A stretch of DNA of 64,000 bases from Escherichia coli. GTDB taxonomy: Bacteria; Pseudomonadota; Gammaproteobacteria; Enterobacterales; Enterobacteriaceae. Positions within the stretch are counted from its first letter, which is position 1; each line of letters begins with the position of its first letter. Position numbers: made by a program. The stretch lies in assembly GCF_045037415.1 (NCBI RefSeq), contig NZ_CP173438.1. One strand, written 5' to 3'. Of this stretch, positions 42,601 through 45,600 are shown one piece after another.

Positions 42601-45600
42601 CACCAGAGATATCTGGCAATTTAAAATGACCCGATTACCTTTAATAACCAGATCAATACAAATAATATTCTCGTATTTTCAGGGCAGGTTATTTATCGAC
42701 AGAATACTGATATAACCTGTCTGCTTTCTGATAAGGGCTTCTTTTTTTATCTTCCAGAAACTCCGGAATGCCATAATTTAGTCAAATGCCGACGACTCAT
42801 CTGTATAATAAGGTGCAAGCCTTGCTGCAAGAGCATTCAGCCGTATAAGTCTCCCCAGTGTTGTACTGAAATACCCATTATTCATCTGGTATTTCTCGCA
42901 GACCTCCTTACGGGAGTGCCCACCTACCAGATAGTCCTTCATAGCCAGAATGACCCTGTCACTGTGAATAGAAGAAATACCTATCAGTAAAAAAAAATGC
43001 ATTTCAGACATAGAGCCGGGCAACAGTACGCTCTCGCGTATATTCAGCAAAAACGCATTTCCTGACCGACTGATGACTTCATGATGCGCCATGTTTCCCC
43101 CTTCTGTCGGGCCCCTGGATATATGCTTCCGGCCCGGAAATACTCTTCACGCAATAAGTTAAATTTAGTTTTTTATGTTGTAAATATTGATTTAAACGAT
43201 CTTTTAACCCGCAAAACAAAACCAAACCAGAATAAAACACCAACAACAAGAATACACTCAGATAAAAACATCATGGTGAATTGAATTTACAGCATAAAAG
43301 ATCGTCTAAATGCATTTTTACGGACTTTCTTTTCACAGAAAAATAACACACAAAATGTGATATACATCAAATAAAGCCAACAAAAAGCAAATTCACTAAA
43401 TTTCACAAATAAAGCAAACCCAGAGAATAAAAATACCTTTCCGTTGATAACAGAGAGCATGATTTTTATTATTCGAAGAAACTTTGTTACAGTGAGATGA
43501 GTGAATATATGAAGAATGAAATACTGGAATTTCTGAACAGGCATAATGGAGGGAAAACCGCAGAAATTGCGGAGGCGCTGGCGGTAACGGATTACCAGGC
43601 ACGCTATTACCTGTTATTACTGGAAAAAGAAGGTATGGTTCAGCGCTCTCCATTAAGGCGAGGCATGGCGACATACTGGTTTTTGAAAGGAGAGATGCAG
43701 GCGGGACAAAACTGTTCTTCCACAACTTAATAACTCAGTTTGTGGGCATGCTTCACTGAAACAGATAAAAGCTACATCAGAGTGCAGATTCAATTTTGCA
43801 GCATTCGTCACAAAATAAAAATCCAGCATTTTATGTCAGAATACCTCACATGATAATAAAACCTGTCCGGTTTTACTGCATGGCCAGACATTATAAAAAA
43901 GCAAATCCTGTAAACTCCATTCAGCCTCCTTGCTGTCCGGTAACGGAGGCTGTTTTTTCGTTACGCCTTTCCCCGGCAGCATCAGTAGCAGTAATTTATA
44001 GATTCTACGAACTGAGACTGTCTGTCCAGGGAGAACATACGCATCCCGGCGCAATGCTCCGGTCATTTACAACCTGCTTCTGATCATAAACGCCACGATC
44101 CTTGGCTCTCACAGATTTCGGGAGAAGAAAGTTAGTTTACAGGCAGAAACCACTCATAATATTGACATGAGAAAGATTTTCTGTTATACAAAAAACATAT
44201 GAAATGATATAACATCACAAACTGGAGTTTTTATGGCAGAATCCGGGTTTATTTCTCTCGAATTATCCCGCTCACAGGCGCCTGTTACAATTAGCAAGAC
44301 AGCTATACTCTTTGCAGAAGCAGACAATGATACCCCGGAGTCAACTCATCTACATTGCGTTGGTGGTATCACTCATACCGTAAATGGTGTTTTTAACGAT
44401 ATTGCAGAATTACTTCCGCGATTCATTAAGACGCACCGTCGGGATAATGGTCAGCCCGCAGTGGCTATCCATGACTGGAATGTTTCATACATTGAAAAAG
44501 GCAACGATGCTTCTGCTGTTGTTTACTTCACAGAATCAGGCTCAAGTATAACCGTCCGTGAATCTTACGAAGACATAATAGCAAAGTTTCACGCTCTTTA
44601 GTCAACACCTGTGCTGAGAATTAAAGCAGGGGCAGGATACAATTATCCTGCCCCTGCCGTTAAAGATTATACAATGAGTATTACTTTGTAATATTTCGGT
44701 GGTGGGTTATAAAGATGTGGTCTCCTCAGAGGATCGTTTATGGCAGATAGTGCAGATATTGCTTATGAAAATGAACAATTCAGCATGAGCATCAGACTAA
44801 AAAATCGTATCCGGAATAGACTCCCTGAAACAGGATTCTGCTATAACTGCGGAGAACCTGTTAAGACTGGATTGTTTTGTGATGGTGACTGTCGGGAAGA
44901 TTATGAGAAACGTGAACGATTTGGACAAATAAATACTGACAATGTTTAAAAGCAATACAATTACTGATATCTCTTTCAGACTTCAGAATTAAAGAAAACT
45001 GCCCGAATGTTATCCGAAAAGCAGCTGTAATTAGTAATGCTCTTATCAGGAGTGAAACATCACCTCCCAGAATACATCAGAACAGAAGGATAACAGTTAT
45101 CCGATGTGACGGCTATAATGTGCCGACACAGAGGGTTACTCACCGATCTCCTTCACGGTAATACGCAGCTCTGAGCATGGTGGTGAGCGGGGAGTGCTAC
45201 TGTACAGCCTGATCGGGACGTGCAAACTGAACGACGAGGATCCAGAAAACTACCTTCGCCATGTGTTTGGCGTCATAGCTGACTGGCCGGTCAACCATGT
45301 CAGCGAACTGCTTCCGTGGCGCATAGCACTGCCCGCTGAATAACACATCCCCGTCAATACGGCCCTCGCTGTACTCTTACCGTGGATCCAGCAGTCCACT
45401 TATTTGCATGAATAAACGAGTGGTCGCAGACCACGCAACATCATTCAAATCCCCCGCTAATATTACAGGTAACTTCAGTGTGTATGGAAACACCTCATTA
45501 ACTGTTATCACAAATAAAACGCATACCTGTTCCATATGAAATTTATCACGCCTGACTACATAACATTAATTATCCGGAGAACTGGGATGCCCGTGACACA

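What the first reader, a model, noticed from the sequence alone, without database searches (positions are those of the whole stretch)
45183..45343. IS66 transposase 3' fragment marks a recombination scar between the pap and F17-like modules
Only the last ~53 codons of an IS66 TnpC-like gene are present, with nothing upstream. This is consistent with an IS-mediated deletion or junction that brought the two fimbrial modules together.
Basis: seen in the sequence. Interest (0 to 1): 0.2.

Follow-up and report, generated by a model that had tools for sequence, protein, structure and literature searches.

The report
Dead IS66 end in island spacer
The fragment is real: it is the last 213 bases of a dead ISEc8-like insertion sequence, nested among other mobile-element debris between the P-pilus and Ucl (F17-like) pilus operons of a well-known uropathogenic E. 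coli island, and it is ordinary and already annotated.

Summary
**Observation:** confirmed and slightly enlarged. Window 45168-45380 is the terminal 213 bp (nt 2230-2442 of 2442) of an ISEc8-like IS66-family element, 94.8% identical to ISEc8. It holds the last 57 tnpC codons plus stop and an intact 22-bp right inverted repeat (45359-45380). Nothing IS66-like lies upstream.

**What cut it:** the break at 45167|45168 was not made by IS66. It abuts the exact 33-bp right terminus of an ISEc12-like IS21-family element (45135-45167).

**Right side:** the IS66 end abuts 30 codons from the middle of an endonuclease/exonuclease/phosphatase (EEP) gene. One genome carries that gene intact, uninterrupted and colinear with the luxR-like genes beside ucl.

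**The block:** these pieces form a 460-bp junk block (45032-45491), present nearly unchanged in about 330 of 5,426 complete E. coli genomes. None has an intact IS66 there.

**Interpretation:** partly supported. The block is a rearrangement scar in the pap-ucl spacer. However, pap-ucl and sfa-ucl islands exist without it, and general pap homology ends about 1.1 kb further left.

**Verdict:** RefSeq already annotates the fragment as a partial transposase. Low interest; already known in kind.

The parts
45168..45343 (+). 3' remnant of an ISEc8-like IS66-family tnpC: 2 nt of a Gly codon, then 57 codons and the TAA stop (TnpC aa 456-512 of 512)
   Evidence: Pfam PF13817 E=1.4e-15. blastn 94.8% to ISEc8 nt 2230-2442 and tblastn 89.5% over 57 aa. 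Alignment. RefSeq/PGAP pseudogene 'transposase domain-containing protein, missing N-terminus' in UTI89.
45344..45380 (+). Non-coding right tail of the IS66-family element, with its right inverted repeat at 45359-45380 (ACGGCCCTCGCTGTACTCTTAC); the element terminus is at 45380
   Evidence: 21/22 identical to the IRR of a complete 2442-bp ISEc8 copy whose IRs were found independently. Unique in the window, 0 expected by chance. Homology to the intact EEP gene starts exactly at 45381.
45135..45167 (+). 33-bp right terminus of an ISEc12-like IS21-family element (GTTACTCACCGATCTCCTTCACGGTAATACGCA), abutting the broken edge of the IS66 remnant
   Evidence: The left-flank search matched 1,770 genomes, but only 363 held 80% or more of the flank; most of the rest were sampled as hits to this terminal stretch alone, in unrelated chromosomal and plasmid contexts. 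It lies directly after istA/istB of an annotated ISEc12 that interrupts an Ail/Lom gene. In four contexts the sequences are identical up to ...CGCA and then diverge. Unique in the window.
45032..45134 (.). 103 bp of unassigned sequence forming the left part of the 460-bp block. Its last 14 bp (45121-45134) together with the 33-mer match orphan 47-bp IS21-like ends elsewhere
   Evidence: Found only in genomes that carry the block. The 47-bp version occurs in O157 644-PT8 and several plasmids without an adjacent IS21 gene. Absent from block-less islands.
45381..45478 (-). Internal fragment (about 30 codons, [31 protein letters not shown]) of an endonuclease/exonuclease/phosphatase (EEP) family gene: the target the IS66 element inserted into
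   Evidence: 96.9% DNA identity and 29/30 aa to residues about 234-263 of an intact 362-aa EEP gene in strain Z1323MEC0001. That protein hits PF03372 at 1.6e-34. PGAP pseudogene in UTI89.
45479..45491 (.). 13 bp of uncertain origin (diverged EEP sequence or filler) at the joint between the EEP fragment and the luxR-like gene's downstream flank; right edge of the 460-bp block
   Evidence: Alignments. Block-less islands resume at 45492 (ACCTCATTAACTG...). Clear outgroup homology resumes by 45499.
44740..44949 (+). Left flanking gene hyp69 (69 aa, weak zinc-ribbon-like hit). With hyp122 (44233-44601) it forms the segment shared by ucl-linked pap and sfa islands
   Evidence: ORF list. Weak DUF2116 hit, E=0.0012. 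Annotated hypothetical in UTI89. Same genes lie upstream of sfaC.
45651..46127 (-). Right flanking gene: LuxR-type regulator (158 aa) on the ucl side. It converges on the block, so the block lies between two 3' ends
   Evidence: ORF list. Weak GerE hits. Annotated as LuxR family in several genomes.

Best explanation
The feature is an inert, nested insertion-sequence relic.

**Proposed history**
1. An ISEc8-like IS66-family element transposed into an EEP-family gene. That gene lay to the left of a luxR-like/hyp70 gene pair on the ucl side of the island. This is shown by two facts: the IS terminus at 45380 abuts EEP codons exactly, and an uninterrupted EEP gene, colinear with the same luxR/hyp70 genes, survives in strain Z1323MEC0001.
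2. An ISEc12-like IS21-family element then transposed into the IS66 tnpC between ISEc8 nt 2229 and 2230. This is shown by the exact IS21-type terminus ...ACGCA at 45167 abutting tnpC sequence.
3. One or more deletions or illegitimate recombinations followed. They removed almost all of the IS21-type element, the 5' 91% of the IS66 element and the 3' part of the EEP gene, and left the remainder next to the region downstream of hyp69. A separate deletion of about 1.7 kb removed the EEP 5' part, yqaE and a second luxR gene. These steps are inferred.

**Present state**
- The resulting 460-bp block (45032-45491) has no IRL, no tnpA/tnpB and no DDE domain, so it cannot move.
- It lies between the converging 3' ends of hyp69 and the luxR-like gene, so it is unlikely to affect expression.
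- It is inherited as a passive marker of PAI-leuX / PAI II(J96)-type islands.
- Islands lacking the block most likely lost it by a further 460-bp deletion.
For: **Anatomy**
- ISEc8 nt 2230-2442 = window 45168-45380, 94.8%.
- IRR identified against a complete ISEc8 with 22-nt IRs and flanking 8-bp direct repeats.
- The IS21-type terminus is identical to the ISEc12 right end and diverges immediately outside it in four independent contexts.
- The EEP fragment matches the middle of an intact 362-aa PF03372 protein, with homology starting exactly at the IS terminus.

**Colinearity**
- In Z1323MEC0001 the order is EEP, yqaE, luxR2, luxR1, hyp70. In the window it is EEP', luxR1, hyp70, in the same order and orientation.

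**Age and conservation**
- The same junctions occur in 312-338 genomes, including diverged alleles such as B349aT, E57 and 536.

**Inertness**
- No other ISEc8-like DNA is in the window.
- No genome has an intact copy continuous with the fragment.
- Promoter-like and terminator-like sites are not enriched over shuffles.
Against: **The order of events is inferred, not observed.**
- No intermediate was found: no intact IS66 in the EEP gene and no intact IS21-type element in tnpC.
- The left 8-bp target duplication is lost, so it cannot be checked.

**The direction 'block ancestral, block-less derived' is not secure.**
- At two of three outgroup-rooted informative sites in the right flank, block-less alleles keep the ancestral base while all block-carrying alleles share the derived one. 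The third site conflicts.
- The block-less joint (45031|45032 to 45491|45492) shows no microhomology.
- Its right end falls inside the 20-bp interval that holds the older EEP'/luxR-flank joint. I estimate that at roughly 7% by chance.

**Other gaps**
- The origin of 45032-45134 is unknown.
- Only one complete genome carries the intact orthologous EEP gene.
Confidence: 0.8

Rival explanations
1. One reading: the IS66 element itself mediated the deletion or recombination that fused a pap module to an F17-like (ucl) module, and the fragment is the scar of that fusion.
For: The fragment sits in the pap-ucl spacer with module-specific homology on either side. The EEP evidence suggests the ucl-side DNA begins at the IS66 insertion site. 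The spacer is clearly rearrangement-prone: IS100, ISCro1, ISEc23 and IS3 insertions occur in other strains.
Against: The broken IS66 edge is a clean IS21-type transposition joint, not an IS66-made deletion endpoint. The IS66 right end is a normal insertion joint into the EEP gene. pap-ucl and sfa-ucl islands exist without the block. General pap homology ends at about 44084, not at the fragment. No intact IS66 occurs at this site in 5,426 genomes.
Confidence: 0.15
2. The 460-bp block is a secondary arrival. The ancestral island had hyp69 joined directly to the luxR-like flank (the Z247/SCU-101 form), and the block entered later, for example by allelic replacement from another island.
For: Block-less alleles keep the outgroup base at two sites where all block-carrying alleles share a derived base. 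Both edges of the block coincide with the only joints defined by comparison. There is no microhomology of the kind a simple slippage deletion would leave.
Against: The block is not bounded by transposon ends, so no transposition mechanism would insert it. Its right part is an EEP fragment whose intact orthologue lies 1.7 kb from the same luxR/hyp70 pair in Z1323MEC0001. That linkage is very unlikely unless the EEP fragment was there by descent. One informative site groups block-less alleles with window-type block carriers. All block-less forms seen carry a derived IS3 insertion in the luxR-like gene.
Confidence: 0.25
3. The fragment is functional: a short protein (the 49-aa GTG ORF at 45194-45343) or a regulatory element, such as an outward promoter or terminator from the IS end, acting on neighbouring fimbrial regulators.
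For: The sequence is highly conserved (99% or more in 312 genomes). One terminator-like hairpin starts just outside the IRR at 45382-45399.
Against: That conservation equals that of the surrounding island and reflects recent common descent. The ORF lacks the DDE domain and keeps only the 39-residue C-terminal motif. Both neighbouring genes point towards the block. Promoter and terminator hits do not exceed shuffles. Block-less islands keep both fimbrial operons.
Confidence: 0.03

Closest known systems
ISEc8 (IS66 family, 2442 bp; tnpA-tnpB-tnpC, 22-nt IRs, 8-bp target duplication), for example the copy next to ykgM/ykgO in E. coli O157:H7 EC4115
   Same: Window 45168-45380 aligns without gaps to its last 213 bp at 94.8%. 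This includes the TnpC C-terminal IS66 motif, the stop codon and 21/22 of the IRR.
   Different: Only 8.7% of the element is present: no IRL, tnpA, tnpB or DDE domain. At about 95% identity it is an ISEc8 relative or isoform rather than ISEc8 itself. The best E. coli match outside this locus is also about 95%.
ISEc12 (IS21 family; istA-istB)
   Same: The 33 bp at 45135-45167 are identical to the right terminus found downstream of istB in annotated ISEc12 copies, and end in the family-typical ...CA.
   Different: Only the terminus survives. Inside the 33 bp the window diverges from ISEc12 and instead resembles orphan 47-bp ends seen in O157 644-PT8 and some plasmids. The parent may therefore have been an ISEc12 relative.
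PAI-leuX of UTI89/RS218/UM146 and PAI II(J96)-type islands (hek, pap, F17-like/ucl, cnf1, hly)
   Same: The window is 97.8-99.9% identical to UTI89 over the three aligned stretches of its PAI-leuX that were fetched (about 24 kb). The pap-ucl linkage on these islands is described in the literature (PMC7545054, PMC9519008). PAIs as IS-littered mosaics are described in PMC7686366.
   Different: None relevant to the fragment. This window differs from UTI89 around papG and by an extra IS3-family insertion at about 55129-56373.
RefSeq/PGAP pseudogene UTI89_RS23735 ('transposase domain-containing protein; incomplete; missing N-terminus') and UTI89_RS29675 (EEP-family partial)
   Same: These are the same two features at the same positions, already flagged as partial.
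   Different: The annotation does not name the IS, the IRR, the IS21-type terminus or the relationship to block-less islands.

Membership tests
IS66 family (ISEc8 group) | TnpC transposase with the IS66 C-terminal motif | tested here: met
   PF13817 E=1.4e-15, full profile. 57 aa at 89.5% to ISEc8 TnpC aa 456-512.
IS66 family (ISEc8 group) | Terminal inverted repeats (outer end GTAAGCG... / ...CGCTTAC), both ends present | tested here: not met
   The IRR is present at 45359-45380 (21/22 to ISEc8, ending CTCTTAC). No IRL: the pattern occurs only once in the window on either strand.
IS66 family (ISEc8 group) | tnpA and tnpB accessory genes and the DDE catalytic part of tnpC upstream | tested here: not met
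   Homology to ISEc8 starts at nt 2230. No other ISEc8-like DNA is in the window. Upstream in-frame translation has stops.
IS66 family (ISEc8 group) | 8-bp target-site duplication flanking the element | not testable with these tools
   The left end is lost. The right flank CGTGGATC is contiguous with upstream EEP sequence in the uninterrupted gene of Z1323MEC0001, consistent with a simple insertion. The EC4115 ISEc8 copy shows the expected 8-bp repeat AGTGATTG.
IS21 family (ISEc12) | Element terminus identical to a known member and ending ...CA, with divergence immediately outside | tested here: met
   33/33 identity; flanks differ in four contexts.
IS21 family (ISEc12) | istA/istB genes | tested here: not met
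   No such ORFs lie between 44950 and 45167. Only 33-47 bp resemble IS21-type ends.
Endonuclease/exonuclease/phosphatase family (PF03372) | Homology to a protein carrying the Exo_endo_phos domain | tested here: met
   30 codons, 29/30 identical to residues about 234-263 of a 362-aa protein with PF03372 at 1.6e-34. The fragment alone is too short to score.
Composite IS66 transposon carrying ucl (considered, not adopted) | Two copies of the same IS flanking the cargo, with usable outer ends and a target duplication | tested here: not met
   The flanking IS66-family sequences (45168-45380 and 58155-62144) have inward-facing IRRs. However, they are only about 65-70% identical at the DNA level, and the left one has no outer end.

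The most novel reading that the evidence does not exclude
The ucl (F17-like) segment 45381-58154 is bracketed by the right ends of two IS66-family elements that both face inward (termini at 45380 and 58155). The fragment could therefore be the decayed left arm of an IS66-flanked composite unit that delivered ucl, with its luxR-like regulators, next to pap or sfa operons. A related possibility concerns the stretch of tnpC encoding ...KN(F/Y)(L/M)FFG(S/N)DHGGER. It may be a preferred landing site for other insertion sequences. ISEc45 (IS110 family) sits there in the right-hand element and at the same junction in 742 genomes, 11-12 bp from where the IS21-type element entered the fragment.
Probability: 0.1. 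Interest if true: 0.35.

Novelty: already known. Interest (0 to 1): 0.1.

Why it matters
It matters little beyond bookkeeping. The dissection gives a precise 460-bp marker that separates two allelic forms of the pap/sfa-ucl spacer, which could help in typing PAI-leuX / PAI II(J96)-like islands. It also corrects the mechanism: an IS21-type insertion plus deletion cut the element, not IS66 activity. It shows that the ucl side once continued into an EEP-yqaE-luxR region that is still intact in a rare strain. None of this changes the understanding of P or Ucl fimbriae or of IS66 biology.

Tried and rejected
- **Longer gene in another frame:** rejected. There are stops upstream, and homology ends at 45168.
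- **Intact IS66 at this site elsewhere:** tested with a synthetic query (150 bp of ISEc8 upstream sequence joined to window 45168-45495). The only hit covering 80% or more, strain 16843, is a separate ISCro1 inserted near hyp69, with the truncated fragment still present.
- **Origin of 45032-45134:** E. coli genomes (distant mode) and plasmids gave only block-carrying loci, two small 'plasmid' records carrying the whole block, and orphan 47-bp IS21-like ends. The origin remains unknown.
- **87-bp difference in B349aT, E57 and 536:** this is a secondary deletion between 9-bp direct repeats, not evidence on the block's origin.
- **Promoter/terminator scan of 44700-45900:** no enrichment over shuffles.
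- **Rooting block-carrying against block-less alleles with outgroups:** 2 sites against 1, so inconclusive.
- **Literature:** papers describe the pap-ucl-hly-cnf1 islands and their mosaic, IS-rich nature, but none held in the library describes this fragment or ISEc45 targeting.
- **Local scripting on fetched loci:** limited, because only some locus files were exposed to the sandbox. The alignment tools were used instead.
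Full report
**1. Where we are**

The window is a uropathogenic E. coli pathogenicity island. 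An 801-bp query around the finding is 100% identical to UTI89, NU14, UM146, ST131 strains and others. Over the roughly 24 kb of the UTI89 island that I fetched, the three aligned stretches are 97.8-99.9% identical to the window.

The local gene order in window coordinates is as follows:
- pap operon (minus strand)
- papB, 42778-43092 (-)
- papI, 43497-43730 (+)
- hyp122, 44233-44601 (+)
- hyp69, 44740-44949 (+)
- the finding
- a LuxR-type 158-aa gene, 45651-46127 (-)
- hyp70, 46190-46402 (-)
- uclD, 47492-48571 (-), followed by the rest of uclCBA

**2.

- The translated tail hits Pfam DDE_Tnp_IS66_C over the whole 39-position profile at E=1.4e-15.
- Against a complete ISEc8 the match is ISEc8 nt 2230-2442 = window 45168-45380, 94.8% over 213 bp. 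That ISEc8 copy is 2442 bp, has 22-nt IRs and is flanked by an 8-bp direct repeat.
- At protein level, TnpC aa 456-512 of 512 aligns to 45170-45340.
- The remnant is therefore 57 codons plus stop, followed by 37 bp of IS tail. The tail includes an intact right inverted repeat at 45359-45380 (21/22 to ISEc8). That IRR occurs once in the window, with 0 expected by chance.
- Upstream, the frame closes and DNA homology stops dead at 45168.
- No other ISEc8-like sequence exists in the 64 kb.
- RefSeq already carries this as a partial pseudogene.

**3. What cut the IS66 element**

The 33 bp immediately to the left (45135-45167, GTTACTCACCGATCTCCTTCACGGTAATACGCA) behave as a mobile-element terminus.
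- The left-flank search matched 1,770 genomes, but only 363 hold 80% or more of the flank. Most of the remaining hits sampled cover only this terminal stretch, in unrelated chromosomal and plasmid contexts.
- In an annotated copy the stretch lies right after istA/istB of ISEc12 (IS21 family), which interrupts an Ail/Lom gene.
- In four contexts the sequences are identical up to ...CGCA and unrelated beyond.

So the broken edge of the IS66 remnant is a clean transposition joint. An ISEc12-like element inserted into tnpC. Later, nearly all of that element and everything to its left was lost.

Inside the 33 bp the window departs from ISEc12. It resembles orphan 47-bp ends in O157 644-PT8 and some plasmids. 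The origin of 45032-45134 remains unknown.

**4. What the IS66 element had inserted into**

- From 45381, exactly outside the IRR, the minus strand encodes [31 protein letters not shown].
- This is 29/30 identical to residues about 234-263 of an intact 362-aa EEP-family protein in strain Z1323MEC0001 (PF03372, 1.6e-34). In that strain the sequence runs uninterrupted across the insertion point.
- There the gene order is EEP, yqaE, luxR2, luxR1, hyp70. luxR1 and hyp70 are 92% identical to window 45499-46450.
- The window is therefore colinear with that region, minus about 1.7 kb (the EEP 5' part, yqaE and luxR2).
- The EEP fragment is a vestige of the ucl-side flank, not imported junk.

**5. The block as a unit, and comparison with related islands**

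Aligning islands that carry sfa/foc instead of pap (FDAARGOS_1267, SCU-101), and a pap island (Z247), shows hyp122-hyp69 joined directly to the luxR1 flank...GCAGCTGTAAT|ACCTCATTAACTG.... Relative to them the window has a 460-bp block, 45032-45491:

| Window coordinates | Content |
|---|---|
| 45032-45134 | 103 bp, unassigned |
| 45135-45167 | IS21-type terminus, 33 bp |
| 45168-45380 | IS66 end, 213 bp |
| 45381-45478 | EEP fragment, 98 bp |
| 45479-45491 | 13 bp, unassigned |

*How common it is.*
- The junction region is present at 80% coverage or more in 321 genomes.
- The EEP fragment is present in 338 genomes.
- The left part of the block is present in 329 genomes.
- The hyp122/hyp69 flank is present in 363 genomes.
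- So roughly 40 genomes are block-less.

*Variants.*
- B349aT, E57 and 536 carry a secondary 87-bp deletion between 9-bp direct repeats (GTTATCCGA).
- 536 has the block after its PAI II pap operon, but IS3/ISEc21 and hly follow instead of ucl.
- MS15236 has IS100 at 45026|45027 and has lost pap.
- GIMC1409 has ISEc23 just right of the block.
- Strain 16843 has an ISCro1 near hyp69.

The spacer is clearly an IS landing and rearrangement zone.

It found none in 5,426 complete genomes.

**6. Does the fragment mark the joint that brought pap and ucl together?**

Only partly.

*For:*
- It sits between pap-side and ucl-side DNA.
- The ucl-side ancestry starts at the IS66 insertion site.
- The only illegitimate joint lies at the inner edge of the IS21-type remnant, or further left.

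*Against:*
- The homology that this pap operon shares with about 1,000 other pap operons ends at about 44084, 1.1 kb to the left.
- hyp122/hyp69 were seen only in ucl-linked contexts or their remnants, next to either pap or sfa. The pap/sfa exchange therefore happens left of them.
- Block-less pap-ucl and sfa-ucl islands exist.

*Which form is older is not settled.*
- The EEP colinearity argues that the block, or at least its right part, is ancestral and that block-less islands lost it. All block-less forms seen also carry a derived IS3 in luxR1.
- In the outgroup-rooted right flank, two sites group all block carriers as derived, with block-less alleles retaining the ancestral base. One site says the opposite.
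- The block-less joint has no microhomology.
- Its right end falls within the 20-bp interval that contains the older EEP'/luxR-flank joint. I estimate that as about a 7% coincidence.
- I put about 0.6 on 'block ancestral, later deleted' and about 0.25 on 'block arrived later'.

**7. Function**

None is expected.
- The remnant lacks IRL, tnpA, tnpB and the DDE domain.
- It lies between converging gene ends.
- Promoter-like and terminator-like matches do not exceed shuffles.
- Islands without it retain both fimbrial operons.

**8. Comparison with what is known, and verdict**

This is a textbook IS remnant in a mosaic pathogenicity island (PMC7686366). It is already flagged by PGAP. The added value here is the exact anatomy, the corrected cause of truncation, the empty-site evidence, and the two-allele picture of the spacer.

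- Novelty: already known.
- Interest: about 0.1.

**9. Side observations**

- The window holds a second, complete IS66-family element (58155-62144, IRs found). Its tnpC is split by ISEc45 (IS110 family).
- That same IS66|ISEc45 junction occurs in 742 genomes at 87-100% identity, with up to 8 places per genome. This suggests target-specific insertion.
- The ISEc45 site is 11-12 bp from the position where the IS21-type element entered the fragment.
- The two IS66-family right ends (45380 and 58155) both face the ucl segment. However, the elements are only about 65-70% identical in DNA, so a composite-transposon reading is weak.

Noticed in passing
window 58155-62144 (minus strand); ISEc45 about 58374-59676: A complete IS66-family element (25-nt IRs at 58154-58178 and 62121-62145; tnpA 61623-62090, tnpB 61276-61626) has its tnpC split by an ISEc45 (IS110-family) insertion at TnpC aa about 447-450. 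The same IS66|ISEc45 junction is found in 742 of 5,426 genomes at 87-100% identity, with up to 8 places per genome, on chromosomes and plasmids. This suggests ISEc45 specifically targets a conserved site in IS66-family tnpC. No paper in the held library describes this.
   Followed up: partly
window 45167|45168 compared with 58373|58374: The IS21-type insertion into the ISEc8-like tnpC (TTCTTCG|GCTCTGA) and the ISEc45 insertion into the other IS66-family tnpC lie only 11-12 bp apart in equivalent coordinates, both in the ...KN(F/Y)(L/M)FFG(S/N)DHGGER coding stretch. This could be coincidence (about 1%) or a hot spot.
   Followed up: no
window 45381-58154: The ucl-containing segment (EEP', luxR-like, hyp70, uclDCBA, DoxX, oxidase, YybH, TetR) is bracketed by inward-facing right ends of two different IS66-family elements, with termini at 45380 and 58155.
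   Followed up: partly
window 45009-45095: An 87-bp stretch flanked by 9-bp direct repeats GTTATCCGA, with GTTATCC/GGATAAC at its ends, is absent in strains B349aT and E57 and, judging from annotated gene spacing, in 536. It removes backbone as well as block sequence, so it is a secondary deletion between short repeats.
   Followed up: partly
window 55129-56373: An IS3-family insertion (orfA 55163-55501, orfB 55528-56346) is present in this window but absent from UTI89, where the flanks are contiguous.
   Followed up: partly
window 45651-46402; L013 6323-7707; L012 5511-6895: The 158-aa LuxR-type gene and the 70-aa ORF next to ucl are also found at 92% identity beside YadA-like adhesin genes in strains Z1323MEC0001 and STEC1589, there with a second LuxR-type gene and yqaE. 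This may be a regulator cassette that travels with different adhesin clusters.
   Followed up: no
window 44233-44949: hyp122 (no family hit) and hyp69 (weak zinc-ribbon/DUF2116-like hit, E=0.0012) occur only downstream of papI or sfaC in ucl-linked islands (363 genomes). About 1,000 other pap operons lose homology at about 44084.
   Followed up: partly
spacer 45000-46100 in other strains (L006, L007, L008, L009-L011, L016, L017): The spacer is an insertion hot zone. IS100 sits at 45026|45027 (MS15236) and ISCro1 near hyp69 (16843). ISEc23 lies just right of the block (GIMC1409). IS3-family elements interrupt the luxR-like gene at three different positions: about 46009 in the block-less forms, about 46074 in B349aT and about 45932 in E57.
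   Followed up: partly
L015 (E. coli 536, 4750816-4762930) and 536 at 3959238-3959667: In strain 536 the block follows the PAI II (leuX) pap operon, but ucl is missing there (IS3, ISEc21 and hly follow). The other half of the luxR-like gene and hyp70 lie at about 3.96 Mb, within the coordinates the review gives for PAI I (selC), which it lists as carrying an F17-like pilus. This is as if one pap-ucl unit had been split between two islands.
   Followed up: no
L005 about 2930-3047 (O157 strain 644-PT8): An orphan IS66-like IRR (…ACGGCGCTCCGTTAACGCTTAC) lies about 50 bp from an orphan 47-bp IS21-like end that matches window 45121-45167. No transposase gene is nearby.
   Followed up: no
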